Shown: positions 2,787-63,387, counted from the stretch's first letter. The stretch is DNA of 64,000 nucleotides from Macrostomum lignano (GCA_002269645.1 NIVC01000150.1:310001-374000), one strand, 5' to 3'. Translations and numbers: made by a program. The notes: generated by a model not told the origin, from the letters alone.

Positions 2787-2871
2787 TGGATTGCGAATAT
2801 GAATATAATAATTCTTGATTAGAATTTCAGTTCCACAGTATCTTCCTACAAATTCTGCGCTCTACCGGAGT

Positions 2872-7860: not shown

Positions 7861-8165
7861 TCAGCTATGACGCCTATGAGCTGGATTCTTTATCTGGCCT
7901 TTGAGGAAAAAGTATGCCCATCCCTGCTTGGAAAGCCAGTTTGTGGGACGTAGTACTCTCATGGTTGTTCTCATGCTTTGATCACGTCATCTTTCTTGCC
8001 AATTTGCAGCCCTGAAAGGAATTTGTGTATCTTCAGCTCCACTGCAGTCTGCATCAGTCTAACAACCAAGGAAATACGCATTTCTTAGGAGGCCATTTAA
8101 TATTTACACAGTACCTTTGAAAGAAACCTAAAATTTCCATGGTGTGCCTAATTTAGTAGGGTTGT

Positions 8166-19303: not shown

Positions 19304-19531
19304 TAGATGGTTTTGAAAAGAATCACTACTGCTACTACTCTTAGTATAATCGATGAATTGATTGATTGACTGCTTTACCTTTCAAAATATAAGTTTTTAC
19401 CTAAAATACTAAGTGTGGATTTAATATTACTGAGCGGCGGCAGCAGCGATGGAGTCGAGCTGGACAGAAGCCTGTACATATGATTTGCCAGTTATTAATT
19501 GGATCACCGCATTGTGTGCTGTCGTAACAGA

Positions 19532-20035
19532 ATGTCTTCTTGGCAAGACGAGTTTACGGACAGCGACGACGAGCGCATCGCAGCTGCATTAGATGAGTAC
19601 GAGCGAGAGAGAGCCGCTGCTGCCCAGAATACGACTGCAGGCCCCGTGTCTTCTGTCCGCAAGCGGGAAGTTTCCGCCGATGGTATCCCACCTGCTGGTC
19701 AGCCGGCACAGAAACGGCGGAACGCCACGACGGACGACGAAAAATCCGACGACGAGTTCAGTGTGCTGGCGTTTAGTAGAGCTACGCAGCGGCTACCACA
19801 GCCGACACTGCCGTCACAGTCAACAATGCAGCAGCAGTCATCCGCCTCCTACGAGCTTGATGAGATGGACTCGGACGACCGGGCGGCCCTCAACGCCATG
19901 CTCGACTACGAGGCGTCCATAAGCCCTGCCGTGCCGCAGCAAAAACCGCCGCCGGAACCTGCTGCAGCTGTCGCCAACCCTGCCGAGCTCTCAACGCTGC
20001 CGAAACCGCCAGCAGTAGCCGCCGAGCTGCATCGT

Positions 20036-20072
<37 letters not shown>

Positions 20073-21796: not shown

Positions 21797-22476
21797 TCTT
21801 TTGATCGATCGATCGATTAATGTTCTGTTTCTTGACTAATAACTTGGCTACTACTACTATTAGAGACTACTCTGGCCTAATAACGGTTCTTTGTTTAGTA
21901 ATCAATCAATTCATTTATTCAGCTAGCCAGCCAGTCAGTCAGCTTTTCCCCCCTCCCCCGATATTTTTGTCGCATAGTTTAAGGCCTTCTTAAGCCTATT
22001 GTTCCTGTCTATTGACTATACAGTTTTCCGTTGACTAAAAACTGCAGGTATGAAGATTTCTTACCTTGTTGATAATAATAATAATAATCCACAACAATGC
22101 ACAACAGCGATGAGCAGCGGTAGATGATTAACAACAACGGCGGCAGAAGAAAAAGGACGTAAAAAATTCAAATGGCGTGCCAAAGCAGAAAACTTAGTCT
22201 CAATAATAAAATCTCTATATAACTATCAATCGTATAGAAGAAGAAATTAAACGCTAGCTAGCTAGCTGCTGTTAGGGATGCAACTTAAATCTTCCTTGTC
22301 TTTACAGTCGAATACATTAATAGTTTATGGCTTTAAGTTTGATTACATCTATAAATAACTGGTGCATTTACATAATAAATAATAATATAATAATAATAAC
22401 ATCGAACATCTGATCGCGCAATATCAAAAGATGAAAAAATTTATAAACAATGGCTGGCTAACTAACGCATGTCCAT

Positions 22477-22949
22477 CGTACAGTTCATAGTGCGCGCATA
22501 ATTCCCTAAAATAATACGAATAGCTAAATGAATCGAGTCCCTTATAATTTTATAGAGTTTAATGCGCGCACTATGAACTGTACGTAATTTTCATGCTCTC
22601 GAACAATTAACACACTATAGGCAGTGATGAGTATAGCGGTAACAAAAATACGAGCATACAAGCATATCTGATTGCACAAATCGAACGCGTACAGTTTATA
22701 GTGCGTGCACAACTCCTAAAAATATATAAATGTGGAAATTGATTGACATTGCAAATCTCTTAATTATTTAGAGTTTTATGCGCGCACTATCGACTGTACT
22801 AATAATTATATTGCAATACTATAACTGAAAACTATGTCAACAATTAGTACATGCAGAGTCTGTAGCGGTACATAAATAAAAGCACTGCCAAATAAATTAA
22901 TCATTCAAGAACGTATAAGGCGCGCACGTACGTGCGCGCATTATACGTT
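22477..22949. repeat. Three related palindromic sites sharing a GTGCGCGCA core
   Basis: Perfect 23-bp arms at 22477-22499/22562-22584, an imperfect copy at 22689-22709/22779-22799, and a 40-bp palindrome with one mismatched pair at 22910-22949. Confidence 0.85.
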
Positions 22950-22991
22950 ATTGTTATTAATTAATTAATCAAGTTAGTGAGAACATAGCAT

Positions 22992-25643: not shown

Positions 25644-26186
25644 CTTTCTCTAATAATTATTACAAATCATAGGATACAGTGTTGGAAAAAATACCCGGTC
25701 CCCATCCAGCATATATATATGTAGAGATATGTAGAGATAGGAGTTTCATATTTAAAGCATCCTTCCATAACCCGCCTCCTCATATTTCATTGATGGCAAG
25801 CTTATTGGCTTTCAGCTCAGTCAAGTGATCACTATTAAACGATTGACTTAATAACTATTGGTTAAATCAACTGCAGGTCTGGGCTTGGCTGGCTGGCTGG
25901 CTGGCTTGTACTCATCTGACTGAGTAATTTGATGCTTTTTACCATAGACTAAAGTTTACGGTCTCGCCCTCACTAGTGGAATTTTCCGTAGTTTCTTTTA
26001 ACCATAGACTGCTTAACCATAGACTGCTGCAGACCTGTCCGCTTGGGTTTATAAAACTCAGTCAGTCCCTTCCCTCCCTCAAACTGCAAGCATCAGCGCC
26101 CCAGCCTAGCCTACAGTTTCTACAGCTTTTCGAGTAAGTTACATTCATATCTGCTGCTCTGTGCATTATTCTATTACGAAAACAAT

Positions 26187-26505: not shown

Positions 26506-27328
26506 GCAGCTTTTCTAACATTTTCTATTCGCACTTAATTGCTGCTATGCCTCTAATCAGTATACATATAGTATTGGAGCGAAATAATAAACGTGTCAAT
26601 AATCAGACTGTTGTCAATCAATCGATCCATCGCTTTACACCAAAAGCATGGAACCTGTACTGTACGTATACATACACCGCTGCTCTGATTCGCTGCAATA
26701 TCAACACAGAGAGTGAATTCGTGTGTTCGTGCGATTATAGCGCAAAAACCATAGACTCGTTATTATCAGCTAAGCGAATTACATAAACTGATGCTGCTAA
26801 TCTAAAAATAGCCACAACTGGCTAGCTTATACTTGGTGGAATTTCGTCTTTCATTTCTTGTTATTAAAGAGGCCGGATGAAAATGTTTGATTTCTGAAAA
26901 AAAGCTCGATTCATTATAAACGCTGTTGCTTTCGGTTGCTTCTGCGCTTGGAAATATAAAACTGAAAAATAAGTGTTTTTTTCGCGCCTCTGCAGCTTTT
27001 GATGTGGCTCAAATGAGCCTAGGGAAACCGGATAAGGACCGGATAATTAGGAAAGTAGTATAACAAATTTTAATTTATTTGCATCGATGCAAAGTGAGGC
27101 AAACTAGCAAAAAGTCAAAGGGAACTAAAGTACAAAAGAACTATAAAAAATAACAATAAAAATGAAAAGTATAAATTACGTTTTTAGTCTATGGCACAAA
27201 GCTGAAGGCTAATCTAGAAAGAAATTACTGTACGACGAAGTAAAGTTATTTGTGCAGCAACACTGCAAGCCGGGAGACTTATACGACTGAGAGACGTGCT
27301 GATTTTATCGACAAATAAGCCAAGAGAT

Positions 27329-28604
27329 ATGTCTGGACAGTCTGGTGCTCGACATCAAATCTTGTCGGATGCAGAAGCTGATGCGCTGGTAAGTGCAACA
27401 GTACCACCAAATACGGTCAAGAAGAGTGCGTGGATGATATCGACGTTTAAAGAGTGGCACGAATGCAAAAAAGAAGACTGGGCAAAGAATGGCGGCTCCT
27501 CTCTGATGGTATTGAAATCTATGGACGAATTTACTAGGTCCGACTTGAACTATTTGCTGAAGCTTTTCATCCTTGAGGTAAGGAATAAGAAGCATGAGCG
27601 CTACTCGGCTGGAACTCTCAAGGACTTCGTGTCTATGCTGCAGTATGAAATGCGCAATGTCTACGGAAAGGACTGGAGCCTTTGGACGGATGTTCAGTTT
27701 GCTGAAAGTAGAAAATCGCTGGATGCGGCTATGAAGCTATCAACTGCGGAAGGAAAAGGAGTCGGGCTAAAAAAGTCAGAGCCTGTGACGAAATCTATCG
27801 AAGATGATTGCTGGAATGCTGGTGTGCTAGGCTCCCACAATCCTGAGCAACTAGTTTGCACCGTAATTTGGCTAATTGGCAAGCACTTCGGTCTGCGGGG
27901 TGGTAGTGAGCTACGTGATTTGGAATTCCAGTGCGAGATCAATTTGGATGGCAGTGGGATTAAAGAGTGCCTTGTTTACGAGGAGTGTCGGCGGACCAAG
28001 ACGAATCAAGGTGGCCTGAAAGGAATTCAGAAACAACCGAAAGTAGTCAAAGCTTTCCATGCTGCATGCAGATCCGGAGCAATGCGTTGTGTGCCTATAC
28101 ATCAAGTACGTTTCGTTGCGCCCCGAGAATTGTTCAAAAGCTTTGTTTCTTGCCGCCAAAAAGCACTTGACGGAATCGAACGGAAAAGCCTGGTATAGTG
28201 TTCAGCCTATTGGGAAGAACACTATCTCGACAATTGTGAAGGCCGCAGTGTCTGAAGTTCGGCCAAACAGCACTGCTCGTTTCTCGAATCAGAGCCTGCG
28301 AAAAGCATGTGCTACTCAACTCCACGAGGCTGGTGTCGAACGCGGAGACATTGCTCGGATCACTGGTCACGCTACTACCAAGGCTCTGGAGAAATACATA
28401 GCGCCATCAACAACACGACAAAAGATCCAAAGTGCTATTTTGAGTGGAGACGCCACCGAGGCTTCTGCTGCAAGTATCATACAACAGTCTCATGTTACCG
28501 TGTCCGACGTCAATACCGAGGTTTCTATCGAACCACCTGCTAGTAAGCGCATGCTCATCGAGGCAGACGGTGAAAAAAACGTTGTGAAAATCACATTCTG
28601 TTAG
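27329..28604 (+). mobile_element. Crypton (DUF3504-type) tyrosine recombinase copy A, one frameshift near 28065
   Basis: EVRNKKHERYS, HFGLRG, CVVCLY..Y..LRP, WYSVQPIGKNT, SNQSLRK, ITGH and EKY. ORFs 27296..28198 and 28059..28604 overlap and contain no internal stops. Confidence 0.85.
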
Positions 28605-29585: not shown

Positions 29586-30412
29586 GCAAAAATTCCAAGA
29601 ACTTAGAATGAGCAAGGCATGAGCGATGGAGCAGGGACTCCAAAGCTCAATCGTGCAAAAAGCGGTGAATGTGTCTGACGGTCTGCAAATGAACGGCCGG
29701 AGTATTTTCATAATGAACAATAGTATTTTTTTAACAATTTCCAACTGAAATGGGTACTGTGACAATTGTGTCGTACTTATGGAGACTAATTCTCCCCATT
29801 AATATTAATTGATATATGCTTTCTAATTCGGGTTTGTTCTTTCTGTTCTAAAAATAACCCACCGTTCTCTCGAGGTCAACACATCCAAAGGTTTCAAATG
29901 AAGGGTGTGGATCAGGCTTGACCATAGACACTTCCATTATCCTAAAGACTGATTTTTTGACAATGGGTGGAGGCGCGAGTGTGCTAGGGGAAGCAACACC
30001 TAGACTACGAGTGCGCGTAGTGTCCATCCATGGCGTTGCTCCACCTTGAAACCCTCGCGCCTCCACACCCATTATCCTGAACTGGGACCTTAGAATAGCT
30101 TTACTGTCGCTCGGAAGATACCATAGACAAAATCTTAGACTGATCTCCAGAGAACAAAAAGGGATGTTGAGGTCAAGCAAGCCAGAATATAGATAAAATT
30201 CTTGATTTTGTAATGTGTTTGTATTTGATTTCGCATGCCAGCTCTGGCGGTGGTGGCACAATAGATCATCCATGTCTATGGGTCGTGACAACCACAGTTA
30301 TTTACATAAAGGCAGGTCGTATGCCACTGAGGAGTTCCTCACGCTTATTTTCTTGCTCACACCAACCCACGGTCTTACAATGTTTTCACGAGTGGCGAAG
30401 CCATGAATTCAT

Positions 30413-30780
<368 letters not shown>

Positions 30781-30934
30781 CTGGGTGATAAGCTATGCCA
30801 TAGACTACAACTCTACGAAGTCAGAAAAAGTCGAGAAGGAGAGGAAGAAAACGAAGACTAGCTCAGTATTTTCTTCGATTTAAACTTCCACTGAGCCTTG
30901 ATCAAGTACGACGGAATAGTGGAAGGGAGATTGT

Positions 30935-47065: not shown

Positions 47066-48448
47066 GTGTGTAGCTTGGTACCGAATATGGGTGACACCTC
47101 TGCTGCTGTCGTTGTTGAAGCCCCGTATATGGAGATTTCGCCGGACCTACTGGATTTCATCCTGAAGCCCGGGGATAACGCTGGACCTATTGAAGCCTCT
47201 CTCACTGGCTGGTTCGAGCAACTTTCGGAGAATGAAATTGCCAGACACATTGAAGAGACCGTGCCGAAGACCACCAAGAAAAAGGCGCAGTGGGCCTTTT
47301 CCGTCTTCCGCGAGTGGCATGACGAGAAGAAGCGTGCCTGGCGATGGGTGAAGGCCCGTCACTTATGGTTCTCGCTGAGCTGGAGGATGCTAGCAAATGT
47401 GACCTGAATTACCTGCTGAAATTTTTTGTTATGGAGGCCCGGAACAAAGATGGTGAGCGCTACTCTGCGTCGACGCTGAAGGATCTGTATTCAATGCTAC
47501 AGTATCACTGGCAAAACACGTTCAAGAAGAATTGGAGCTTCTGGCTTGACAAAGAGTTCGCCGACAGTAAACGTGCTCTAGATGCAGCCATGAAAATCTC
47601 GACCAAGGCTGGAAATGGTGCAGGATTGCGGAAGGCAGATGTGATCCCCGAGTCTATTGAAGAGAAGCTTTGGATCGAAGGTGTGCTTGGAGTGAAGGAA
47701 CCCAAGATGCTGGTGATCACGCTTGTTTGGCTCGTTGGCAAACACTTTGCATTGCGTGGTGGCCAGGAGTTACGAGATCTGCTGTTCGATCGCCAAATCA
47801 AGCTTGAGACGGTTGACGATGAAGTGTCTGAAGTATGTGGACAATGCCGTGACCAAAACTCATCAGGGCGGCTTACAAGGACTACGAAGGGACCCCAAAG
47901 TCGTTCGTGCTTTCCACACTGAGAATCACCAAAAATGCATTGTGTGCGTCTACAAGCAGTACGTCTCTGTGCGTCCTAATGAGTGCAACGAGGCGCTGTT
48001 TCTGGGATGGAATCGAAACTGGAATGGCCAGTCTGGATCTGCCTGGTTGACAAGGGCACCGATTGAACGTCATTCATTGGCAACCGTCGTCAAGGACGCC
48101 GTGGCCGTGGTTGCTCCCTCTGACACGGGACGCTACTCGAATCAGAGTCTCCGTAAGAGTTGCGCAACCCGCCTCCGCGAGGCTGGTATAGAACGGGCGG
48201 ATATCTGCCGTGTGACTGGCCACAGCTCCAGTGCAGTGGAAAAGTACATCGGTACCTCGGTGACCATGGAGAAACGCACGAGTGCACTGTTGAGTGGTTC
48301 CTCAACCGGCCAACCGGTGAGTGAGTCTCGGGTGACTGCAGCGCAGGTGCAAGTGCCCTTGCCTCCTCTGGAGGTGCAGGCTCCTACGAAGAAAATGCGC
48401 ATAGAGGCTTTTGGAGACAGCAACAGAGTGGTGTTCCACTTTGATTAG
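47066..48448 (+). mobile_element. Crypton YR copy E (same subfamily as A), two frameshifts
   Basis: EARNKDGERYS, HFALRGGQE, SNQSLRK, VTGH and EKY. Frameshifts at ~47342 and ~47825. Confidence 0.85.
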
Positions 48449-48767: not shown

Positions 48768-50268
48768 AAATAGATGCGCGCTCACACTACTTTGTCGATG
48801 AAGAGGGAATGACTAGCCATAGGTTTGTCTTTAGCCACTCGGGGTTTTCGCGAGCTCCTATGAGGCGAAAGCTTAGTATGTTGCGAGAGTCTAAAGTTAC
48901 CCATCTAGATAATATAAAATCTGTGCTTTGGACTGCGTGGTTTTGAGTTTGAAGAGAGGAAGAAGAATTTTTGCTAAGCAAAATGCAGAGAAGCTACTTT
49001 GCTTTATGACATCTGCAAAATCACGGACACAGTGATTGGAATCACGGTCTACGACTGCCCAAACTACGCTTTTGAATGTCCACCTGGAACAGATTCCACA
49101 GGTTTCCATCAGACCGTGATCGGTGGGTTGCAGATTACTAAATGACCAACTTCGTCATTCTCTCTATAGAAGCCTTCGTACCTTTCGTACTTTTATCTAC
49201 ATTTAGCATCTGCGACTGAAATAATTAACATTACAGGTGTGAAGATTAAGCTTGCCGGATATTCCGAGCTGATCTTATGCGCAAGAAGTTCGAGCACAAA
49301 TGGGCGAATGCTGTTGTATGCAGTCAGCACTTCGAGGACCACATGTACATGTGTCCGAAAAATCGTCACGAGGCTGACAGTCGACTTGCTTGGAATGCAA
49401 TTCCTACGCTAAAGCTCTACGAGCAAGCCGTAACAAAGCAAATACATCGGCCGCCTCCAAAGCAGAGAACTGATTCTCCAGCATCTCTGCATCAAACTCG
49501 CGTAAGTGACAAAGTGCAAAACGAAAACGAAGTTCCTAGTTTTGCCGAGACTGCAAGTGAGCGGCATGATAAGCCAAAGGGAAGGAAACCCGTTCCAAGA
49601 GCAACTTTGGGGTTCGCCTGCTAAAAAAGCCGGAATAATGAAAAAACTAAAGCGGCGAGTTTCTAAGCTGGAGCAAGATGCAAGATGAAATCTGCATAGG
49701 TGGCTTCCAGTCGCAATTCTGCAAAAATTTCTAAATTCTCCGGCTTCAATCATTTGGTACAGGATTTCATCGAAGATCAAAAGAAAAATGCTAAAAGGCT
49801 TCGTCCAAGTTGGTCACGGTCTTCACTCCGAATTGCAACAGGTCTACTACACTTCAGTCCTAGATGCCACCGTTTCCTCAGAGATTGGATTCAAACTTCC
49901 AAGCCGCGTCACGATTCGGCGAAAGATCGGAGGCTGTCTACGCCAACCTGGCGTACTTGCCTGTACTTGCTTTCACCGTTTTCTTGTATTGCATTGCCTC
50001 CATTGTTCTTATGACGGACTTTATCAAAGTATGTTTTCCTTTTATGAGCATGCATACTTGCATCATTTATATAAAAAACGTACATTTAAACCGTTTAAAG
50101 CATTATAATACATAGAAAGATATGATACCTTGAGTTAGTATTTTTTGTACTGAAAAATCGACTATCGTATAGCAGTTTTATCGCAAATCACAGCTATAGT
50201 CGATGGCTACTCATTCCTCTTCATCGACAAAGTAGTGTGAGCGCGCATCTATTTCTACTCAGTTCTAT
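48768..50268 (+). mobile_element. Truncated THAP/P-like DNA transposon with ~50-bp inverted repeats
   Basis: IR AAATAGATGCGCGCTCACACTACTTTGTCGATGAAGAGG at 48768 and its reverse complement ending at ~50254. It encodes THAP VCSQHF...AIPT and P-type WS..SL...SPR...LPSRVTIRR; the catalytic domain is absent. Confidence 0.7.
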
Positions 50269-51643
50269 TCTTAAAAAACGCTGACTGAGAATTCTGTGTA
50301 AGTTCTGTGCATTATTCCCCATTGGTTTTTATTTATTTTGACGACCTGAGAAAGCGTATGTTCCAAATAAAGGCGTCCAAGCGTTTTTAATCGAAAACGA
50401 GCTGTCGTACGATCTGATTTGAGTGCCACCAACTATTTTAAAAACTATTTGCGCCTTTTCTAATCAACACAGAGAACCCAGGGGGTCTGTTCTGTGCACT
50501 CTAAACATTGATTTGCTTTCGAGCTGGTCTGAATTGGTTCTTCAACCTTAACCGTCCAGGTGTAAACATTATTGGAGACACCGTGTTTTCTGCTGCCAAT
50601 CGAATGCTACGGTCTATGGAGCAAAAATTAAAACATGTCAACCATCTAATCAACCAAAGACTCGAGATGAGTTTTCTGCTATCGAGAATAACGATCTGGT
50701 CAAAATCATGGGCTACTTTGTTTGGGAAAATGGCGAAGTACTTCAGCAGGAGATGATATTCCACCTTATCTACTACAATTACGAGTAGGACTACGTGGAG
50801 GAGAGACGTTGCCATTGCTATCCAAGACAAGCTTCGTCTTTCTGCGAGTAGAAGACTCGAAAGGCAAAGAGTATGTGGTCATAAATTATGACATCATCAG
50901 CAAAAATTCGAAGGCTTCGTTGAAATCGAGCGAGTTCAAGGATGCCAAGAAAGCACGCATGTACACCACCGAGGGCTCGACGAATTGTCCTGTGTCGGCT
51001 CTGCGTATGTATATACAGCGCTTGAATTGAACATCGATACTCTCTTTCCAAAGCCGTGCATGAACATTTCTAACGGCCTGGCCAATCAACGCTGGTACTG
51101 TGGTACACGTCATCTGGGCAAAAATTCAATCGATCAACTGATGAGTAATTTGTCTACTAAACTTGCCCTCTCTAAGCGTTATACCAACCCAGGGACTACT
51201 CAATTCTCCGGACGGGAAACGGCCAAATCATGCAGAAAAAAGATGGAGGCCGATTTTCTCTGTTCTCTGCTGATCTTATGTTTTATCGCAAGAGCTTCAG
51301 CTTTTCACTATGTACACAAAATTTATCCCTCTTCAACTTCCTGTAGCCTGTTTCTACTCAAATAATTTCGGATAAATGCTAGGAGACATTTTATACAGTA
51401 CCCCTTTAATACACAAACTCGATGCTTGATAAGCCAAGTGCATCTGTTGTAGAAGTCTATGGGAAACATTGAAGCAAGAAGTGAAAGCCTGTATTATGTG
51501 ATGGCCTATAAGGACTGATACCATAGAATGCAAATAAATAGTCAACTTTGGACTCCCCTGTGAGTTAACTTGGCTGGGTAGCCACGACACGACAGAAATT
51601 TTCATTTGCTCTTCCTAATTTTGCTTTGCGTTTTTTCGCATTC

Positions 51644-53449
51644 ATGCCAAGGAAATGCTGTGTGCAATCATGCAAGTCGAACTATTTGAACGAAAAAACT
51701 TCTGTTAAAGTCTTTACTTTCCCAAACGATCCTATAGAGAAGGAAAAATGGCGACTGGCTCTACCAAATGTCATCAAGGTGAGTCGAGCAGTAAACTGGT
51801 AATAATGAAATTCGTGATTTTACTCTCTACTGGGCAAGTTGGAGAGACAGTGCATTGTCTCTCTTGTTCGGAAGGACAAGTTTTGCGAGGTATTGTTTCT
51901 GTAGCACACCGCTCATAATTCTATCATTCGACGGTTCCGCTGAGAGATCTGCTAGGATTCCAGCCTACATTGAAGTATTTTTCACAACTCGATGCCATTA
52001 TCGTTCGATGCATGAATTTTCAACTTGAGTTGAAAGCGATGTCGTCGTCATTTCTTCAAGTGGTGGAATAAGAAAATACTGTCATCACGAATCCATCGAT
52101 ACAGTTTTTAATTTCACAACTACAGCTAATTTCTACAAGTCCAGTGAGTCGTCGGTACGACATTGCCACACTAAGGCAGTCAGCTCTTATCTATTTAATC
52201 AGCAGTTCAGCTTACTCTCAACTTCGCACTCTGTTGCCACTGCCACATCAAAGAACTCTCCGTACAAATTTGGCCGGTCTTGGAGAGATTGGAACTGCAG
52301 CCGATTCTGATGAAACTATTCGAACAGTTTTTTCTGCACTTCGCGGCACCCAGCTGAACTGCGTTTTACTATTTGACGATTCCACGATACTGCAAAGTTT
52401 GTAGAATCTATTGTTAAGTTTTGGAAAACAGTTAATTGCTGCAACCCTTATTTGCACATACGACTGAACGATCCTGATCGAAAGCCAATTTCCTCGATTT
52501 CGAACGAACGTTTAGTATTCTTAAGTGCCTTGGCGCAGGCTGTGTCTGAACGTGGCGGTGGTAGAGGACGAAGTCGACATCAATGCCTTACGACCGAGAC
52601 CAAAAACGCATTATGTAACAGTCTGTTCGGTGTGGTAGAAATGTGTCACCAACTGCTGGAAACCGGTGCTATGCAGTATGTTCTGCTATCTGAATTCAAC
52701 ACTGATCCTTTAGAAGGTGAATTCGGAGTCTATCGCCAAATGAGTGGAGGCAACTATTTTATTTCAGTCGAACAAGTTTTTCTTAGCGCCCGACTGAGAC
52801 GAATGAAGCTCTTTACATCGCTTGAATTGTCCGACTTCAGTCACCAACAGAGCCACTGCTGCGACAGTCAACTATCAGATGAGGAATTAGGGACAGTCGA
52901 CAGTTGCTGCATTTCTGCGGAGAATTTGACATCGCATGAGAATGCTGCCCTATATTACATTTCAGGTAAGTTTCAAATTGCTTCTTCAAGCAATTTTGTA
53001 TTCTTGCACGAGTATAATAATATTCGTATATATATATATATATATCTACTTTCATTTATCTTTTTGGTTTTAACTACCTAGGCTACGTTGCAGCAAAGGA
53101 AGGAATTCCCGCTGACGCAGAAGCAGCACGAAATGAACCATGCGAATTTACGGAGCTTGTTTCCCGTGGAAAGCTAGCGCATCCACCAGAATGGCTTTTC
53201 CAATTCTCACGCCTTTGTTATGCTAGCTTCACATCATATTCACCAAGCTGTGCAACCCGTGTGCAACAGATATTCAATGCTATCGCCGAATATTTCTTTC
53301 CAGATAAGGACATTCATACCACTTCGGTGACTCGTCGCCTATCAAACTGCTTTTTCAAAGGACTTGTGCGAAACTGCAAAACTGCAGAACAAACACCAGA
53401 CGCAAGTGATCGTAAAATCACAAAGCTACGCAGTTCGTCTCGTTTATAA
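51644..53449 (+). pseudogene. Internally deleted multi-exon THAP/P transposase
   Basis: MPRKCCVQSC...FTFP...KW (THAP), SSSAYSQLR..LPLPH.RTL, LLFDD, FNTDPLEGEFGVYRQMSGGNY, YYIS|GYVA. The central catalytic region is missing. Confidence 0.85.
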
Positions 53450-54221
53450 GCGCGATTGATACCGACTGAGACTACTGGATTACGAATTCGATTTGTCGCA
53501 TTGCTTATATTTGCTTATGTTGTGTCACTACACGTGATCGAAACAGCCCCCTAAGAACGCTCTGCAGTGATCGAGCCTGGAGATGGCGTCAGCCCACTGA
53601 CCGGACTGACTCCGTAACTGAGCGTGGGGTCGCGTCGAGGTAGGGTAGTCAGTCCGTCCCTGAGGTGTACAGTACCCACTTCGCACGAGGCCCAAATGAG
53701 TAATGAATGCGGGCGCAGGTCTTACTTTGATTTCCAATCTGCTCGACGATGGGCAAGGCAGCGAATTCGTCAATTTGTAGAACTGAGATTCTTGCTGTTG
53801 AAGTTTGTAGGTTCTGAAGAGTAGTCTAGTGTCAGGCGTCAACAAGCGCGCTCGCCCTGCCTACCGCCAGCAATTCTCTATTTATTTGGACTGCCTGGCG
53901 TAAGCCCTAGGGTCTCACGCCAGACAGCATTATCAAAACCCAACTTATTGGCCAATCACCAATTGACAAGGGCTAACAAAAGGGGGAGAGAGGGGCCAGA
54001 CCAGCCAATCCGGCTGGGTACGCATAAAGAAAAGGGGCAGGGCATAAGAGCTGATACACAACTGGGGGGGTTAGCGCAGGCAGAAATGGGGGGGTTGACA
54101 CAAACAGAATGGGGGGGGGGGGGCGCAGGCACACGGCCAGGAGGGGTGGGAGTGCAGTGCCGGGCGCACTTGACCGAGAGCCAGAGATTGCTCATCGGTG
54201 CAAGTGCACCCGGGCACAACA

Positions 54222-54233
54222 CCCTCCCCCTCC
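54222..54233 (-). promoter_or_regulatory. Polypurine tract
   Basis: GGAGGGGGAGGG immediately 5' of the 3' LTR on the minus strand. Confidence 0.85.
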
Positions 54234-54319
54234 ACGAAAAGAGGGTTCGTACCATAGACGAAGGACTGTGCAATGACGACATGAGCATTTGTTATTGTCA
54301 GCTGGCATTTTACACACAG

Positions 54320-54970
54320 TTAAATATTATAAAATTCACGCGCAGCCGCAGCCAGTTGACCAGGTAGAGCCCCGTCGCTTCGCTTCTCAGCCAGCCAGGC
54401 CGCCGCCTTCCGGACATCAGTCGGCTTGCCCGGGTTTCCCGCGAATGGCGCTGACGAAGCGACTAGCAGCCGGTCGGAAGGTATCGCTGCGACGCGTTGG
54501 GCATGCCATCGGCTGTTGACGACCCGGGCGGTGACTTCAAATTTCAGTCTTGGCAACGACGCTAGGTACAGGTTGAGAGTGTCTTTGGGCCAGTCGGAAG
54601 ATTCGACAACTAGAATGCGACAGTTTGCAAAGTCCGACGCCACTAGCAACCGTAAGAACTGGTGCCAGGCCGAGCCACCGGGTTCGACTGGACTACGTCT
54701 ACGCTCTCGCAAACGAACCAGGAGGGGTAGATCCCGTTTCTTGGCTAGCCGAACCTGTAGCTCCAGGGCTGCCATTTGTTGCTCCACACTGATCGCAGTA
54801 TTCTGGACGTCCAACTCGGCTTCGCCGACAGCCACTACCCTTGCCCATCCTTGCCCAAAATACAATTACAACTGCATGAAAATACGAACCCGTACTGTAC
54901 TCAGCAACTTGGAGGCGCGATGAGAAGGGTGAGAATTAAACGTTCCAGAGCGATTGATAGACAGATTGGT
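54320..54970 (-). CDS. TatD-derived extra ORF inside the Gypsy, with one in-frame TAA at 54866-54868
   Basis: NSHPSH...VVAVGEAELD...LAKKRDLPLLVRLRE...IPSDRLLVASSAPF aligns by eye to TatD GxHP, VAIGExGLD, LPVVIHxR and IPLDRLLxETDxP. Several metal ligands are substituted. Confidence 0.75.
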
Positions 54971-54975
54971 ACAGA

Positions 54976-57900
54976 TTAATAGAGGATTGGGTCTCCGAAT
55001 CGACGTGGTGCAACTCCTCGATTCGCACGAACAGGGCGACGATTCAATTCTTGCTCGGGAGGAGCGGCTACAAGAGGCTGATGGTGTGTGACGCGCTGTG
55101 CCCAAATGGGCTCTGGTTCCAATTCAGCGTCACTGTTCTGCTCAGAGTCAAATACCGGCATCGGGGGATCAGGAGCTTCCGGGCGGGAATATCGCTCACG
55201 TGACCTGATTCCCGCCGCTGCTTGAGTCCTCCTCTGGGCAGGGACGTGGAACCTAGAGCTGGCATCGATTTTCCTTAGGTTGTTGAAATGGACTACTCTA
55301 GGCCTTCGCGCACCATCGTGCAGGATTCTGTAATTGACATCGGAAAATTTTTTCAGGACTTTGGCCGGGCCTTTCCAATAGCGGTGGAACTTCGGGATTT
55401 CATTCGGTTTAATGACGGGATCGTATTCTAGAACAAGATCACCTTCATTGATCTGAGTGCCACGAGCTTGGCTGTCATAAAGCTTCTTTTGCTTCCTCTG
55501 ATAGGTTCTGAGATTCTCCCTCACGGCCTCGTGTGCTTGCTGAAGGTCTTCAGCCAGTCGACGAGTGAACTTGGAGAAACTCTCTGGCACCCTCTCAGTC
55601 GGATTCTCAATGTCGATCGGGAGCTGCATCTCCCTACCAAACAGAATGTAGTGCGGAGTGTAGCCTGTGCCTCTATGCACGCTAGAACGATAGGCTAGCA
55701 AACCGGGCGCAATGAAGTCTTCCCAATCTTTGTCCTCCTGCTCTAACTGACACGTTAACATGTGCTTTAGAGTCCTATTAAAGCTTTCTGCTTGCCCATC
55801 CGCCATCGGATGATACGGAGTGGTTCGACACTTGCGGATGTCTAGCAGAGAACAAAGGTTCTTCATCAATGCTGATTCAAAGTTTGATCCCTGATCAGTG
55901 ACTATCTCCTGTGGACAACCGAATGATGAAATCCAGTGCGTGAAGATTGCACGGGCTACTGTCTTGGCACGCTGATTGGTTAACGGGATTGCACACGGCC
56001 ATTTACTGAATGCGTCTTGGATTGTCAAAACAAATCTCGACCCATGCTTGGACTTCGGCAAAGGACCAATGACGTCGCTCATGATTCTTTGGAACGGAAA
56101 TGAGCTCGGGATGGGTTGCAGTGGTGCCCTGCTTCTTGGCGATGGTTTGCACTTTGAGCACACTAGACATGTTCGGCAGAACTCTTCAACTCTCCGAGAC
56201 AGACCAGGCCACCAAAGCGTTGCTTAAACTTTCCTTGAGTCTTCTTAACTCCGAGGTGGCATCCACTGACGCCATCATGAAGAATTTTGGCGGCTTCCTC
56301 AAACAGGGAACTCGGAAGGAGGATTCTCTTCTGTGAGCTCTCCGGCACTGTCAGGAGCAGTAGCCCATCTTCTACGACTATTCGAGCCCTATGGGCCCAG
56401 ATCTCTCTCTCGACTAAACTACTGATCGGCTCATTTTGCAGCGCTTCACCTTCCAGGAGCTGCCTTACTCGTTTTAGAGCCGGGTCAATTCTCTGAGCCT
56501 CTCTGATGCACTTGACGCTGAGAGGTGATGCTAACACTGCAGCGTTCACCTGTTCAGGTGCTTGTGGCGAACTGTTACAGGAAGGGCACGACTCTTGGGC
56601 CCAATGCTTTCGAATTTTACGAGACAGACTGTCCGCATTCTGATGGAAAATTCCCTTCCTGTGCGAGATCTCAAAGTCGTAACGCTGTAGCGTCTCAAGC
56701 CATCTAGCACATTGCCCCTCGACGTCCTTAAGACTTGTCAGCCACGAAAGAGCGCTATGGTCTGTCCGTATCTTAAATTTCCTTCCCAGCAAATAGTACT
56801 TGTACAGCTTTACGAAGTGTACTATTGCTAGGAGTTCAAGTCTGGTAGTGCAGTAGTTCCTTTCACAATCTGCTAGCGACCTGGATCCATAGGCAATGAC
56901 GCGCTCTGACCCATCGGGTTGGCATTGCGACAAGACTGCACCGATCCCAATCTTCGAGCTGGCGTCGGTGTCCAGCACAAACGGTCCAGCTCCTTCGGAA
57001 AAGTCTGGATAGGCCATGATCTCCGCTGATGTTAGCGATTGCTTGAGTTCGGAAAACGCCTGCTGTTGCTCTGGGCCCCAAATATACTGTGAGTCCTTGC
57101 GCATGAGCTTGAACAACGCGGCTGCCTTTATTGAGAAGTCATTCACGAAATTTCTGTAGTAAGAGCAGAGGCCCAAAAATGACTGCAGTTCTTTTATATT
57201 CTTGGGTGTGGGCCAGTTTCGAATTTCTTCTGTCTTCGCAGGATCTGTCGCAATACCTTCAGACGATACGACGTGCCCTAAGAACTTGGCTTCCTTGGAC
57301 AGAAAATGGCATTTCTTGGCTTTCAAGCGGATCCCAGCAGTTCGTAAGCGATCGAAAACATGCTGGAGCCGCTCAAAATGCTCTTCGTAGGACTTTGAAA
57401 AAACTATTATATCGTCAAAATATACAAGACACTCTCTCCATGTCAGACCAGCCATAACAAGGTTCATCAGCTTGACGAAAGTCGCAGGGGCATTTCTTAG
57501 CCCAAAACTCACATATCGCCAGGCGAACTGACCTCTATTTGGAACTACGAATGCCGTCTTAAGTTGATCTTTAGGATCTAGCGGGCACTGGTGATAGCCT
57601 GAAGCCAAGTCCAGAGTTGAAAAAATAGCATTTCCTGCAAGTGCCTCTAAAGTTTCATCCATTCGCGGCGGCGGAAATGGGTCAGGATTGGTTACTTCAT
57701 TTAGTCGGCGATAATCCAGGCACAGCCTGATGGATCCGTCCTTCTTCCGCACAGGTACGACCGGGCTGACCCACGGGGATTGACACTCGTAGATCCTACC
57801 GCAGTCTATTAGCCTGTCAATTTCTTTATCGATTTCTGGCCTTATGTGCGGTGGGATGCGGCGTGGTGGTTCTCTAGTTGGCCTGGCGTCCCCGGTGTCT

Positions 57901-58757
57901 ATGGTATGCATTGCCTGGTCCGTTGAACCCAGCTCGCTATCGTCCTTGGCGAAGACATCTCTGTTCTGACGGATCAACTTTATGAACGACACCTGCTGGT
58001 CTTCGGACAAGTCCGGCGAGTCCCAACTGCCCAGATGCTCTACAGGATCCCAGTCTTTGTCGAGAGAAACCCGGTTAACTTGTGCTTTGGGTTCTTGATC
58101 GTGATTTGGTTGGCTGTCATGGACGGGCGAGAACCAGCCAATCTGCTTCCCTTTTGTTAGTACTACAGGTTCTCCCGACACATTGGTGATCTTGACAGGG
58201 ACGGAACCGTCAGCAGAGGGTACGACAACTGACCTAGCCAGCATCACGTGGCCTTCAGTCTGGGAGCGGGTCTCTGCCATTCCTAAGAACCGAAATTCCT
58301 TCACTCCTCTCCGACTCAGCTTAGCTCGAATGATTTGAGACCGATTTGCAGGAACTGTTTCCGATTTCGAAATGACTATCCGGCAGAGGATGGGTCGCTC
58401 AGAAGTCATACGAAAAGGAAAAGTTCCTACTGAAGTGACGATCTGAAGGTTCGCAAAATCCAATTTGGCTGCTTGGCAACGGAAAAAATCTGCACCAAGG
58501 ATGCAGTGATGCAGTATGTGTGAGACGACGACAAAGGTGTGGCAAAATCTATGCGAGCCAATCGAAAATTCCCCAACGCACTCACCCAGCACATTTATGA
58601 CATCGCCATTTGCAACTTGAATACTCTCTCCTATGTAGCTTGGCTTCAACACGGCTCGATTCGAGTTCCTCTTCCACGCGGCTTCACTTAACAGTGAGAT
58701 ACTCGAGCCGGAATCTAGCAAACATGCCATACTACTTGTTCTGCCTTCAAATATCAC
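54976..58757 (-). CDS. pol: Gypsy pol (protease, RT, RNase H, integrase) with a 1-nt frameshift near 56215
   Basis: LLDSGS, LCLDYR, YFDD, LDTDAS...TDH, zinc-binding H..CH...C..C, IVTDQGSNF, YHPMADGQAE. Confidence 0.95.
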
Positions 58758-58816
58758 ATCAACAAAACCAAGTTCTGTACCTTGTGCGGGTTGGCTCGGT
58801 GCGCTGGGTTGGGCCT

Positions 58817-59785
58817 CTACTGCTGGTTCGGGTGGGTGCCTGGGCGGCCCTGCCTCCAGGTCCCCTGACCGTTTCCCGTCTGCTGCTGGTCTCTCTGCAG
58901 TTTAAAACACCTGGCCCGTTTGTGACCGGACCGGTTGCAGTAATTGCAAACTATAGGATTTCTGCATTGCTGGGTCGTGTGGGTGGTCTCGAGGCAGCGA
59001 CCACACTGGAAAGTTCTCTGAGCTGGTGCTGCAGCCTGGGCAGGTTGGGGATTAGGGTGCTTATGATAGCGGACTCCAGTTCCCGATCCAGCCTTCAGGA
59101 CTTGCAGCTCCGCCCTCAGTTCTTTCAGCTCTTCGCGGAGCCTGACTGCCTCATCTTGCGTGTTACTTGCGGATACGTTCGCTGAGGGCCAAGGTTTCTC
59201 AGTGCTCGATTGAGCTGTGCGGAGGGATGCCATACCCTGTCTTACACGCCTACAAGCTGCGTCGAGGGTACCCGGTTCCTCCAATAGCAAGTGTTCACGA
59301 ATTCTATCGGCGATTCTGGCACCTAGCAGGAACCGGTCTCTTGCTAGCTCATCTCTCTGTTCTACCGGCAGGTTTGGGTAGGCCCGGCGGACAATTTCTC
59401 GAAGAGCGTCGGCATAATCTTCCACAGATTCATCCTTCTTCTGGTCCCGACCCCTCAGTTCGATCTTACTGTCCTGTGGGGTGTGATGCTGATTAAACCG
59501 CTGTGAAAGGCGCTCAACAAAATCGTCAAACTCTAGATCGTCCGGTAACTCAAGGTTGGCAATGGCTCGGTAAGCTGAGTTGAAGTCCATCATACTAAGT
59601 AGGTGCTGCTTCCTATCTTCCTCGGGGATTTCTGCAGCCTCACAATACGCTGTAAACTGCTGCATCCACAGAGCAAAATCCTGACTCAGCACAAACTTGG
59701 ATAGTCGGGGCACTCTTTGCCCTACGTTCAAATTATTCTGCACTCTAGCTGTAAGCGCATTGATGAGGTCGTCAACGTTGGCCAT
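58817..59785 (-). CDS. gag: Gypsy gag with two zinc knuckles
   Basis: QKKDESVEDY, CGRCLETTHTTQQC and CNYCNRSGHKRARC. Confidence 0.92.
   Translation of the reverse strand: MANVDDLINALTARVQNNLNVGQRVPRLSKFVLSQDFALWMQQFTAYCEAAEIPEEDRKQHLLSMMDFNSAYRAIANLELPDDLEFDDFVERLSQRFNQHHTPQDSKIELRGRDQKKDESVEDYADALREIVRRAYPNLPVEQRDELARDRFLLGARIADRIREHLLLEEPGTLDAACRRVRQGMASLRTAQSSTEKPWPSANVSASNTQDEAVRLREELKELRAELQVLKAGSGTGVRYHKHPNPQPAQAAAPAQRTFQCGRCLETTHTTQQCRNPIVCNYCNRSGHKRARCFKLQRDQQQTGNGQGTWRQGRPGTHPNQQ
58871..58877 (-). promoter_or_regulatory. -1 ribosomal frameshift slippery site G GGA AAC (gag-pol)
   Basis: The heptamer is in the correct gag phase, and the -1 frame reads open into ...ELGFVDVIFEGR of pol. 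Confidence 0.8.
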
Positions 59786-59934
59786 CGGGATTCGAAAGAC
59801 AACTTCAGGAAGAAAAGACTAAGAGATTGACTGGGATAGAGAAGGAGACAGACTAACAGTGCATAGATCTAAGAGGCGCGCAAGCTGCTAACAAATAAAC
59901 GTACAACCCAGGTTACAGTAAACTAAACTCCTAA

Positions 59935-59952
59935 ATCCTGGTCACGGCACCA
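59935..59952 (-). promoter_or_regulatory. Primer-binding site, tRNA-His-like
   Basis: TGGTGCCGTGACCAGGAT adjacent to the 5' LTR, complementary to the 3' end of tRNA-His(GUG) from memory. Confidence 0.75.
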
Positions 59953-61605
59953 GTGTTGTGTCACTACACGTGATCGAAACAGCCCCCTAAGAACGCTCTG
60001 CAGTGATCGAGCCTGGAGATGGCGTCAGCCCACTGACCGGACTGACTCCGTAACTGAGCGTGGGGTCGCGTCGAGGTAGGGTAGTCAGTCCGTCCCTGAG
60101 GTGTACAGTACCCACTTCGCACGAGGCCCAAATGAGTAATGAATGCGGGCGCAGGTCTTACTTTGATTTCCAATCTGCTCGACGATGGGCAAGGCAGCGA
60201 ATTCGTCAATTTGTAGAACTGAGATTCTTGCTGTTGAAGTTTGTAGGTTCTGAAGAGTAGTCTAGTGTCAGGCGTCAACAAGCGCGCTCGCCCTGCCTAC
60301 CGCCAGCAATTCTCTATTTATTTGGACTGCCTGGCGTAAGCCCTAGGGTCTCACGCCAGACAGCATTATCAAAACCCAACTTATTGGCCAATCACCAATT
60401 GACAAGGGCTAACAAAAGGGGGAGAGAGGGGCCAGACCAGCCAATCCGGCTGGGTACGCATAAAGAAAAGGGGCAGGGCATAAGAGCTGATACACAACTG
60501 GGGGGTTAGCGCAGGCAGAAATGGGGGGGTTGACACAAACAGAATGGGGGGGGGGGTGGCGCAGGCACACGGCCAGGAGGGGTGGGAGTGCAGTGCCGGG
60601 CGCACTTGACCGAGAGCCAGAGATTGCTCATCGGTGCAAGTGCACCCGGGCACAACACTTACTACTATTGGGATACTTTGTTATGCTTACTTTGTTTGTT
60701 CTGGTTCATGTGCGTTTTGCACTTACTTGTGGTTCTCTTGCCTTTCGCTCTTATCGTGTTTACTGTTCTTAATATGCTTGTTGTGAATGTTCTGTTTCTT
60801 GTGCTTATGCATTTGGTGTTGTTGAATAATTCTAGTGCACAATAGTGTGTATTCTAGCGCGATCGTTTTCCAAATCTTGGTATACATGTATTGACTATAT
60901 ACAACAGTTTTGTTAATCTTATATCTTATGTTGCATAACTTCTCGTATAATACAAGCTTTCACTTCTTGCTTCAATGTTTCCCATAGACTTCTACAACAG
61001 ATGCACTTGGCTTATCAAGCATCGAGTTTGTGTATTAAAGGGGTACTGTATAAAATGTCTCCTAGCATTTATCCGAAATTATTTGAGTAGAAACAGGCTA
61101 CAGGAAGTTGAAGAGGGATAAATTTTGTGTACTCGTACATAGTGAAATGCTGAAGCTCTTGCGATAAAACATAAGATCAGCAGAGAACAGAGAAAATCGG
61201 CCTCCATCTTTTTTCTGCATGATTTGGCCGTTTCCCGTCCCGAGAATTCAGTAGTCCCTGTACCAACCACTGCATTAGAGTTACGCACGTGACGATACTG
61301 AAGGAGAATGGTTTCTCAAACACTGTTATCGCGTCTAATACTGGCCACAAGAATCCGGAAAGCATAGAGGGCTACACACGAGTGAGGCGCGATGCCGACT
61401 TCCAATGTCCTCAGCACTGAGCGTGGCTTTTATCACATTGTCATATTGACTAGCCAACAGTGCAACGCAAAGCATTATGGTGCACGCTGACGAATCGATA
61501 AGCATCCATGATTAATTAGTCAATGGTTCTATCTATCGTCCAGTACAACGGTTTAAACAAGTTGAGGGACTGTTGAAAGAGCTGAGCTGCAAAGCTGTCT
61601 CAGTG

Positions 61606-63387
61606 GGGTACCTCTCATTTCGCCAATTCTCGTTTCGCCGATTCTCGTTTCGCCGAATCTCATTTTGCCGATTCTCCTTTCGCCGACATTCTCATTTCGC
61701 CTAAATTAATTTCATAACCATCTGGACATTAGACCATAGACAACTACACTAATGCAAGTGTGATTTAGATGTCTATGGCTTGAAAATAAATTTAAAATTA
61801 AGAATTCTTTCTTCTGCATAGTCTATGGTAAAAAGTCTATAGCCAGTGGTATATATGTATGGTAGTAGGTTAGGAATAACATCCAACTTTCAAGCAAATA
61901 TTCACTAAAACGCACCATGGCTCAAGCAGCACTACAATTAACTACTTTAGTTCAAAGTTCGCGTGGAGGGCAGCTGCTTCACATTATGGGATATTTGTAC
62001 CGGCTCGATAAGAAGACTGAAGCAAAAGCATTTTACAAGTGTCGCCGCGAAGGTTGCAATGCCAGGGCCATCGTCGACGGTGGATATATTTCGCACAAGA
62101 GTGGACAGCATCGTCATGCGATTGATGAAACTGAAGCCCAGAGGATGAAATTTGTGCAGCATATCAAGAACGAATATACCAACAACAACGCTCCAATGCC
62201 TCAAGTATACCGGCAGGCCATTGCTATGGACGCCTTTCAAGCAAACCCGGCGACATTGCCGACATTCGGTAGTATCAAGGATGCAGCATACCGTGCTCGG
62301 CACAAGAACTTGCCCCTCTTCCGGCCACTCGAGCTGATTATATCGTTGATCCAGAGACTCAACAAACTCTGTGGGTTTTTGACATCAATGGAGGCACACC
62401 GAATCGCATCGTTGGGTTTTCATCGAGCGAGCTGATCCGCGCACTCGCAGAAACTGATCGCCTTCAAATTGACGGGACCTTCAACTGTTTTGCGAATATA
62501 TTTGAGATGCTGACAATCTCCATGGCAAGGTGCTTGGAGCGTGGGAGCCCCTGGCTTTTTTAAGGTTATAATAATTCCTGAACACTTGGTTGCAGCCAAA
62601 CGCTCGCTATAACCGACAAATGTGGAACCATTTCAATGAAGATGCAGACAGAACTATCAATGCCGCGGAGAGCCGACACCATGCGCTAAATTCGATAAGT
62701 CGCAACCATCGGCTCAATGTCCACAAATTTTTAAAGGAGTTGCGAGTTGAAATTGTCAATGCAGAGACGCGCATTCAGCAGCGAGCCGGGGGGACTGTAC
62801 CACCGCAGCCGAGGCTCCGAACCCGGCAACTAGCGAATGCTCTAGCGACCTTCAGAGGGCAGTTTCTCAACGGCCAAAGAAATCCACGGGACTACGTGGA
62901 TGCTTACAGCTACACTTTGCACGACGCGGTTGTCTAAGTTTCAACTGAACTGAACTCGTAATGATATTAACAGTTTAAAGTTTATTGGTAAAATGTCTGC
63001 TTCTGTGGTCTGTTATTCGACTTCTTACTGTTTGTGTTAGGTCCAGTATGAATGAAAAATAGAATAAAATTGATTGCGAATGTGAAATACAGAAATGCCG
63101 ATTGAAATCGTTTCTGGTGGCTTTTCTGGTAAAATAAATAATTGGTTTTATTGCATTGATTTCTGAGTTGATTTCTGAGTTCGTAATGCTGGTAAGCTAA
63201 CGAAATTAAGCTGCAAAAAGGCTATGGTAGGTAAATGCTCGTGCAATATTACTAATACAATACTTTATTTTTCAAGCCATAGACATCTAAATCACACTTG
63301 CACTAGTGTAGTTGTCTATGGTCTAATGTCCAGATGGTTATGAAATCAGTGTCGGCGAAACGAGAATCGGCGAAATTAGAGGTACCC
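61606..63387 (+). mobile_element. Internally deleted FLYWCH-MULE (Mutator) with ~180-bp TIRs and a 9-bp TSD
   Basis: Ends GGGTACC / GGTACCC. TSD GTCTCAGTG at 61597-61605 and 63388-63396. FLYWCH ORF 61917..62435, a short IDGTF remnant at ~62465, and a WNHF...RTIN.AES.H ORF at 62590..62937. Confidence 0.9.

What the first reader, a model, noticed from the sequence alone, without database searches (positions are those of the whole stretch)
54320..55105. The Gypsy carries a TatD-derived ORF in the env position
Between the integrase and the PPT lies a TatD-like frame with the family's scaffold motifs but substituted metal ligands (HxR reads RLR; ETD reads ASS). The homology runs through a single TAA (54866-54868) up to the integrase stop. 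TatD is established as a TIM-barrel exonuclease/AP endonuclease and is not a standard Gypsy gene. Inference: a captured pseudo-nuclease that binds nucleic acid, possibly for cDNA protection or as a counter-defence decoy.
Basis: partly seen in the sequence, partly recalled or inferred. Interest (0 to 1): 0.75.

Follow-up and report, generated by a model that had tools for sequence, protein, structure and literature searches.

The report
Gypsy element carrying truncated dead TatD
A young jumping gene, probably from a flatworm genome, carries where retroviruses carry their envelope gene the last two-thirds of a TatD DNA-cutting enzyme with most active-site residues replaced, likely old cargo kept as a non-cutting helper protein, though it may by now be a passenger.

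Summary
Core observation confirmed. A complete, very young Gypsy (704-bp LTRs without mismatches, 4-bp target duplication, empty allele in 3 of 4 runs) carries a stop-free 181-codon frame (54320-54865, minus) between integrase and PPT. It matches Pfam TatD above the cut-off (E 7.6e-8), from strand 4 to the natural C-terminus. The bridging Glu is kept; both His and the E-x-D are replaced. The nearest relatives (34-36% identity) are Macrostomum lignano gene models and a Logan protein with the same losses, so the enzyme probably died long ago while the fold was kept. The claim that homology runs through the TAA is weak: upstream there is no alignment signal (z about 0), only two isolated motifs. 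The TAA is present in one other run's contig and probably a second, so it is not private decay. Conservation starts at a candidate 3' splice site just after it. Best reading: old, truncated pseudo-nuclease cargo made from a spliced RNA (0.45); main rival: now a passenger (0.35). No junction was seen; selection is untested. Nuclease ORF3s are known from rotifers, and this scan noted an intact TatD ORF3 in a sea-urchin Gypsy on other DNA.

The parts
53514..53517 (.). Target-site duplication, left copy (4 bp; right copy 60658-60661)
   Evidence: identical 4-mers; empty-site joint 53513 to 60658 with 4 shared letters in 3 of 4 runs
53518..54221 (-). 3' LTR, 704 bp, TG...CA
   Evidence: 0 mismatches, 2 gap columns against the 5' LTR; ends checked
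54222..54235 (-). Polypurine tract abutting the 3' LTR
   Evidence: sequence
54320..54865 (-). ORF3: 181 codons, TatD strands 4-8 and C-terminal helix; Glu of GE kept (near 54825), His-x-Arg reads RLR (54715), strand-6 His reads Glu (near 54605), ETD reads ASS (near 54460); first in-frame ATG at 54775 (codon 31)
   Evidence: Pfam, NCBIfam, PDB sequence, ESM Atlas; profile alignment; positions
54849..54870 (-). Candidate 3' splice site (AG before 54849; phase 1 into ORF3), preceded by a T-rich stretch and the TAA; conserved homology begins at Trp7 (54847). Inferred, no junction seen
54866..54868 (-). TAA that bounds ORF3; an in-frame ATG (54877) and a second AG acceptor (before 54871) lie just upstream of it
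   Evidence: unchanged in the X17 contig and probably in the X3 contig
54869..54975 (-). 107-nt T-rich spacer between integrase stop and TAA; GC1/2/3 0.39/0.47/0.50 against 0.68/0.48/0.58 in ORF3; holds the isolated GTFNSHP motif (54926-54946)
55103..55123 (-). IGTRAHL, a TatD strand-1-like motif in the ORF3 frame, overlapping the integrase tail in another frame; vestige or chance
54976..56223 (-). Integrase frame (zinc finger part, rve core, C-terminal domain, disordered tail)
   Evidence: Pfam
56163..58901 (-). pol: protease, RT, RNase H, start of integrase; one frameshift near 56213 in this copy, not shared by the three runs that cover the place
58871..58877 (-). GGGAAAC heptamer in the gag-pol overlap, predicted -1 frameshift site
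   Evidence: sequence and frames; the slippery pattern is recalled
58817..59785 (-). gag with zinc knuckle; GTRAG donors in phase 1 at 59643 and 59469
59935..59952 (-). Primer-binding site; resembles the complement of tRNA-His 3' end (recalled, not tested)
   Evidence: sequence
59954..60657 (-). 5' LTR, 704 bp; no canonical heat-shock element by a simple pattern

Best explanation
A young multi-copy Gypsy retrotransposon carries a stop-free third frame that matches the last two-thirds of TatD with the two His and the E-x-D active-site residues replaced; this is likely old cargo of the element's lineage, likely kept by selection as a predicted non-cutting, nucleic-acid-binding accessory protein, and likely made from a spliced subgenomic RNA that enters just after the TAA. 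Steps: (1) shown: position, TatD homology, ligand losses, presence in other copies. (2) Inferred: catalysis was lost before this ORF and its Macrostomum relatives diverged to about 35% identity, and the fold was conserved afterwards. (3) Inferred: the N-terminal third dropped out of selection long before the rest, so the TAA marks the 5' edge of the conserved unit and is not the event that killed a whole gene. (4) Guess: a phase-1 gag donor (59469 or 59643) joins the acceptor before 54849 and gives a Gag-N-terminus/pseudo-TatD fusion that would be packaged with Gag and would bind RNA or cDNA ends through a basic, metal-free pocket (His replaced by Arg).
For: TatD match above cut-off, ending at the family's natural C-terminus. 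Three best TatD-like relatives among 1.84 billion representatives include two M. lignano gene models and a Logan protein; they share the His-to-Arg change and loss of E-x-D and group with ORF3 at 100/98. No relative above 36% identity was returned although M. lignano proteins are in the library, which argues against a recent copy of an annotated host gene. Sharp boundary: 4 of 4 downstream blocks align to P0003 (z 2.7-12), upstream does not (z -0.4, -0.6); it falls at a candidate acceptor in phase with two gag donors. ORF3 has coding-type GC1>GC3>GC2, the spacer does not. TAA unchanged in the X17 contig (2 differences, both elsewhere) and not among the 32 listed of 40 differences of the 5,807-nt X3 contig. 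None of the 12 shown of 27 indel rows lies in ORF3. LTR-retrotransposon ORF3s are typically expressed from spliced messages (PMC5408684, passages).
Against: No splice joint into ORF3 in the three runs guessed to be RNA; the X3 contig crosses the whole interior unbroken (low depth, contigs only). Visible polymorphisms in ORF3 are 4 non-synonymous to 1 synonymous against 11 to 18 in gag-pol-int (37 of 344 rows; p 0.15), the direction expected of relaxed selection. Five strands do not close a TIM barrel; the single-sequence model is poor (pLDDT 43) and the good model (76) leans on a TatD alignment. The tree warns of long-branch attraction and lacks animal TatDs. Whether the relatives P0003/P0004/P0007 sit in retroelements is unknown; P0003 has a full barrel behind a J-like domain. 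Two upstream motifs hint at a former full-length gene. X11 and X13 contigs break around the TAA, so some copies may differ there. Binding is untested.
Confidence: 0.45

Rival explanations
1. Passenger relic: ORF3 was once selected cargo (a pseudo-TatD, perhaps full length and overlapping the integrase tail), but the present family cannot translate it; the TAA was fixed before the recent burst and the frame has not yet had time to decay.
For: No ATG before strand 4 inside the frame; an in-frame ATG lies three codons upstream of the TAA and an out-of-frame ATG at 54848 precedes the first in-frame one. The AG before 54871 is the more pyrimidine-rich acceptor and leads straight into the TAA; the M. 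lignano spliced leader ends in ATG and operon spacers peak near 100 nt (PMC8629364, passages), which fits a former trans-spliced start there. 4N/1S polymorphisms. Two upstream TatD-like motifs in frame. Copies compared differ by under 1% (X3: 40 of 5,807), too little time for decay.
Against: The upstream codons are far more eroded than the downstream ones, which a single recent stop would not produce; the polymorphism skew is not significant.
Confidence: 0.35
2. Neutral transduction of a host fragment: the last exon of a host pseudo-TatD gene, with the end of its upstream intron, was copied into the element and never served it.
For: The unit begins at an acceptor-like site after a T-rich spacer and ends at a natural stop; M. 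lignano gene models hold a full-barrel pseudo-TatD with the same ligand losses.
Against: Nearest relatives are only 34-36% identical; a neutral insert of that age would not stay open for 181 codons. The scan's note of an intact TatD ORF3 in sea-urchin Gypsy elements (unchecked) suggests the cargo is not a one-off.
Confidence: 0.12
3. Still-active, atypical nuclease: the kept bridging Glu and a new strand-6 Glu hold metal, and the protein trims cDNA or RNA ends.
For: In human TATDN1 only loss of the bridging Glu112 cut both activities; single changes at Asp222, Glu220 or His174 had little effect (PMC10085689, passages). That Glu is kept here.
Against: Here the equivalents of His149, His174, Glu220 and Asp222 are all changed at once, and the N-terminal motif and His77 equivalent are outside the frame (mapping inferred from motifs).
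Confidence: 0.08

Closest known systems
Juno and Vesta LTR retrotransposons of bdelloid rotifers with DEDDy-exonuclease or GDSL ORF3 (PMC5408684; passages read)
   Same: Enzyme-derived, non-envelope ORF3 downstream of pol; auxiliary role proposed, not shown; no clear departure from neutrality within the genome.
   Different: Different fold (DnaQ-like or SGNH, not TIM-barrel TatD); catalytic residues intact there, replaced here; ORF3 here is truncated and lacks its own start. The paper has 0 occurrences of TatD.
TatD/TATDN1/TATDN3/YcfH/YjjV nucleases (PF01026, TIGR00010; PMC10085689, passages)
   Same: Strands 4-8 and helices align; VAVGE, Q..L.LA....LP, P.DRLLV..AP motifs and C-terminal helix kept; alignment-guided model matches TatD structures best.
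   Different: N-terminal third absent from the open frame; His149, His174, Glu220 and Asp222 equivalents replaced; far below NCBIfam full-length cut-offs (30 vs 206 bits); carried by a retroelement.
Macrostomum lignano pseudo-TatD in UniRef gene models A0A1I8I457 and A0A1I8I0H8 (P0003, P0004) and Logan protein P0007
   Same: 34-36% identity; shared His-to-Arg change and E-x-D loss.
   Different: P0003/P0004 hold the whole barrel behind a J-like domain; their genomic context is unknown; P0007 (166 aa) begins at about the same place as ORF3.
Sea-urchin Gypsy with intact TatD ORF3
   Same: TatD as third gene of a young Gypsy.
   Different: Reported as intact and catalytic there; common origin with this element could not be tested because no sequence was available.
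Envelope genes of errantiviruses (recalled)
   Same: Position between integrase and PPT; likely spliced expression.
   Different: No transmembrane segment (best 19-residue hydropathy 1.25) and no envelope profile hit.

Membership tests
Ty3/Gypsy LTR retrotransposon | PR-RT-RH-INT order with Ty3-type RT | tested here: met
Ty3/Gypsy LTR retrotransposon | TG...CA LTRs, PBS, PPT, target-site duplication | tested here: met
   tRNA identity of the PBS is recalled only
Ty3/Gypsy clade (Mag, CsRN1, Gmr1/Osvaldo, Mdg3) | RT phylogeny against reference clades | not testable with these tools
   no reference RT set in hand; locus searches returned none
TatD family (homology) | PF01026 score above gathering cut-off | tested here: met
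   32.5 bits vs 27
TatD family (active nuclease) | Complete eight-stranded barrel with N-terminal HxH or (G/A)xN motif | tested here: not met
   open frame covers profile 85-233 only; no N-terminal third found in six frames of the element by profile or by P0003
TatD family (active nuclease) | Bridging Glu (TATDN1 Glu112 equivalent) | tested here: met
   VAVGE
TatD family (active nuclease) | Two metal-binding His and the E-x-D motif | tested here: not met
   read Arg, Glu and A-S-S
TatD family (active nuclease) | Exonuclease or AP-endonuclease activity | not testable with these tools
   needs biochemistry
Functional retroelement ORF3 | Present in other copies of the family | tested here: met
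   covered in 4 of 4 runs; one 5,807-nt contig joins it to gag-pol
Functional retroelement ORF3 | Purifying selection among copies | tested here: inconclusive
   4N/1S vs 11N/18S, p 0.15, 37 of 344 rows
Functional retroelement ORF3 | Own spliced or subgenomic transcript | tested here: inconclusive
   no joint into ORF3 in low-depth contigs of runs only guessed to be RNA
env-like ORF3 | Signal peptide or transmembrane anchor, fusion-protein homology | tested here: not met

The most novel reading that the evidence does not exclude
A widespread, undescribed lineage of animal Gypsy elements carries TatD as its third gene; in flatworms it became a dead enzyme, then shed a third of its barrel, and is now expressed by splicing (onto Gag, or with the host's ATG-ending spliced leader) as a nucleic-acid-binding accessory factor.
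Probability: 0.3. Interest if true: 0.72.

Novelty: new variant of a known kind. Interest (0 to 1): 0.5.

Why it matters
It adds a new fold to the short list of enzyme-derived, non-envelope third genes of LTR retrotransposons and shows an enzyme-to-pseudoenzyme step in such cargo. If the host is M. lignano, a model with transgenesis and much RNA data, the open question of what these accessory genes do becomes testable. It also warns that some TatD-like 'host genes' in invertebrate annotations may be element cargo.

Tried and rejected
No whole genome was held, so copy-wide dN/dS and a search for a host donor were impossible. Word-indexed protein searches: none for P0002 among longer proteins, none for the P0003 barrel among shorter ones; the three-sequence profile returned P0007 and 31 ordinary TatDs of 8,000 candidates. 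Locus searches found no ORF3 relative in viral or metagenome contigs, no RT relative in viral contigs, nothing for P0006 in genomes; 2 distant integrase loci had no TatD signal (one has only about 400 nt downstream, the other is 1,055 nt). No RNA holder on record was listed. ESM Atlas: TatD clusters only for ORF3, no usable hit for the P0003 region. BFVD fold search: one giant-virus protein at E 1.8e-5, not pursued, model is alignment-led. P0005 (leucine-rich repeats) judged a chance hit; P0024 is an ordinary bacterial-type TatD and was left out of the tree and the folding alignment. The plus-strand 187-codon frame (54360-54923) has no Pfam hit. Envelope role rejected. Read-through of the TAA and initiation at the following TTG were considered; nothing here supports them. 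Depth was not used as copy number. Literature: searches TatD+retrotransposon (21 listed), TatD+transposable element+LTR (1), TatD+Gypsy (2), retrotransposon+trans-splicing+spliced leader+ORF3 (1) showed no paper on TatD cargo by title or abstract start; I opened only PMC6962438 from these (passage: a TATDN2-annotated gene in a squid Hox scaffold). PMC12801592 (first sixth of the text, term search, supplement 1, first of 8 parts of supplement 5) and PMC8775202 (term search) have 0 occurrences of TatD. Repbase, GyDB, subscription papers and the unread supplement parts were not seen and may already record this ORF.

Full report
The element. The finding lies in a complete minus-strand Gypsy of 7,140 bp. 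Its LTRs (53518-54221, 59954-60657) have no mismatch and two gap columns, begin TG and end CA, and are flanked by a 4-bp duplication. Pfam gives gag with zinc knuckle, protease, RT, RNase H and integrase in Gypsy order; the RT is closest to Ty3 RT among solved structures. Pol has one frameshift near 56213 that the three runs covering the place do not share. Three of four runs hold the empty site, and run X11 shows 10 and 7 contigs with unlike flanks at the LTR end, so this is a recent insertion of a multi-copy family. No genome was available. The host is probably Macrostomum lignano, inferred only from the names of the nearest proteins.

The frame. From 54865 to 54320 there are 181 codons without a stop (16 of 2000 shuffles reach that length). 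They match PF01026 at 32.5 bits, over the cut-off of 27, across profile positions 85-233 of 253; NCBIfam, PDB sequences and ESM Atlas agree on TatD. In a profile of 32 TatDs the frame aligns from VAVGE to the last helix and stops where TatDs stop. The bridging Glu is kept; HxR reads RLR, the strand-6 His reads Glu and ETD reads ASS. By motif these are the equivalents of TATDN1 Glu112 (kept) and His149, His174, Glu220, Asp222 (changed), named in PMC10085689 (passages). That paper found single changes at several of these tolerated, so inactivity is likely, not proven. An alignment-guided model (pLDDT 76) matches TatD structures, but it leans on its alignment; the single-sequence model is poor (43). 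There is no transmembrane segment, so this is not an envelope gene.

The TAA. Upstream codons add nothing to the Pfam score, and forced alignments give z near 0 against a TatD profile, where the same part of P0003 gives 3.3, and against P0003 itself, where all 4 downstream blocks give z 2.7-12. No N-terminal third was found in six frames of the element. The 107-nt spacer is T-rich and lacks ORF3's coding-type base pattern. Against this, two short motifs in the same frame, GTFNSHP and IGTRAHL, sit near the places of TatD strands 3 and 1; 13 of 106,100 control anchors reach their joint score, but I chose them after looking, and the second overlaps the integrase tail. They may be vestiges of a full-length ancestor. 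The TAA is not private: the X17 contig 54831-55088 has two differences, both elsewhere, and none of the 32 listed of 40 differences in the 5,807-nt X3 contig falls on it. X11 and X13 contigs break around the site, so they do not decide.

Relatives. A search of 1.84 billion representatives gave 5 hits: two M. lignano gene models with a shared J-like domain plus full pseudo-TatD barrel (P0003, P0004), a Logan protein starting at about the same place as ORF3 (P0007), an ordinary TatD, and one repeat protein taken as chance. P0003 and P0007 share the His-to-Arg change and the E-x-D loss, and the three group at 100/98 in a 34-row tree that warns of long branches and has no animal TATDN (P0024 and P0004 left out). 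So the enzyme likely died before these diverged to about 35% identity, and the fold was conserved afterwards. I could not see whether the relatives lie in retroelements.

How it could be expressed. There is no ATG before strand 4 inside the frame; one lies three codons upstream of the TAA, an out-of-frame one at 54848, and the first in-frame one at 54775. Conservation begins at Trp7 (54847), two bases after an AG (before 54849) that is in phase with gag donors at 59643 and 59469. I therefore favour a spliced subgenomic RNA, as is typical of ORF3s (PMC5408684, passages), giving a Gag-N/pseudo-TatD fusion. A second AG before 54871 would suit the ATG-ending spliced leader of M. lignano, whose operon spacers peak near 100 nt (PMC8629364, passages), but leads into the TAA; this fits the rival that the family's ORF3 is no longer translated. 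No joint into ORF3 appeared in three low-depth runs guessed to be RNA; contigs drop minor forms, so this is weak. Of 40 shown of 344 difference rows I classed 37 (3 LTR or flank rows dropped): ORF3 4 non-synonymous/1 synonymous, gag-pol-int 11/18, 3 non-coding (Fisher p 0.15). This leans towards relaxed selection without showing it.

Comparison and novelty. Nuclease-derived ORF3s are described in rotifer Juno and Vesta elements (DEDDy fold, active sites intact). I found no paper on TatD as retroelement cargo in four searches, and the M. lignano LTR survey does not mention it in its main text; Repbase and GyDB were not searchable. This scan noted an intact TatD ORF3 in a sea-urchin Gypsy, unchecked by me. 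The frame is a TatD homologue but fails the tests for an active TatD; the element works like the rotifer case and is a new variant of it: different fold, dead active site, truncated barrel.

Verdict. Real feature; core observation confirmed, continuity across the TAA not established. Kept, spliced pseudo-nuclease cargo 0.45; passenger relic 0.35; neutral host fragment 0.12; active atypical nuclease 0.08. Interest 0.5.

Noticed in passing
window 51190-51497 and 60947-61260: Inverted arms of 126 and 186 nt at 98-99% complementarity enclose the Gypsy and a transposase-like gene; probably the ends of another DNA element in a nested pile.
   Followed up: no
window 49250-53449 (+): THAP domain and a fragmented P-element-like transposase with an apparent GT-AG intron near 52967-53082; the Gypsy sits just after its stop.
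   Followed up: partly
window 27218-28604, 47323-48448, 50692-51365 (+): Several DUF3504/tyrosine-recombinase (Crypton-like) frames; Pfam confirmed for 47717-48445 only.
   Followed up: partly
window 19499-25649: Three long frames: a P-loop protein with GPSGVGKT and a DE motif (20594-21796, +; looks like an SF3 helicase or Rep, recalled) facing an 885-codon frame (22992-25649, -) with a possible recombinase-like end; may be an unclassified mobile element.
   Followed up: no
window 61869-62937 (+): FLYWCH zinc finger and a MULE-like transposase remnant.
   Followed up: partly
window 59786-59934 (-) and 60161: The leader has a strongly pyrimidine-rich AG site upstream of the gag ATG, and the LTR has a GTAAG donor at 60161; possible leader intron or trans-splice site.
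   Followed up: no
window 58189-58740 and 58864-59177: Other copies carry internal deletions across protease and the gag-pol junction (joints in X11, X13).
   Followed up: no
P0003 residues about 330-775: A J-like domain, a helical stretch and a full-barrel pseudo-TatD with Lys and Arg in place of active-site His; shared by two M. lignano gene models, no Atlas hit. Host gene or another element's cargo, unknown.
   Followed up: partly
window 1887-2861 (-); 6425-7953; 30171-30883: A long frame resembling a PAP2-type phosphatase (recalled motif) and two long CT-rich low-complexity tracts.
   Followed up: no
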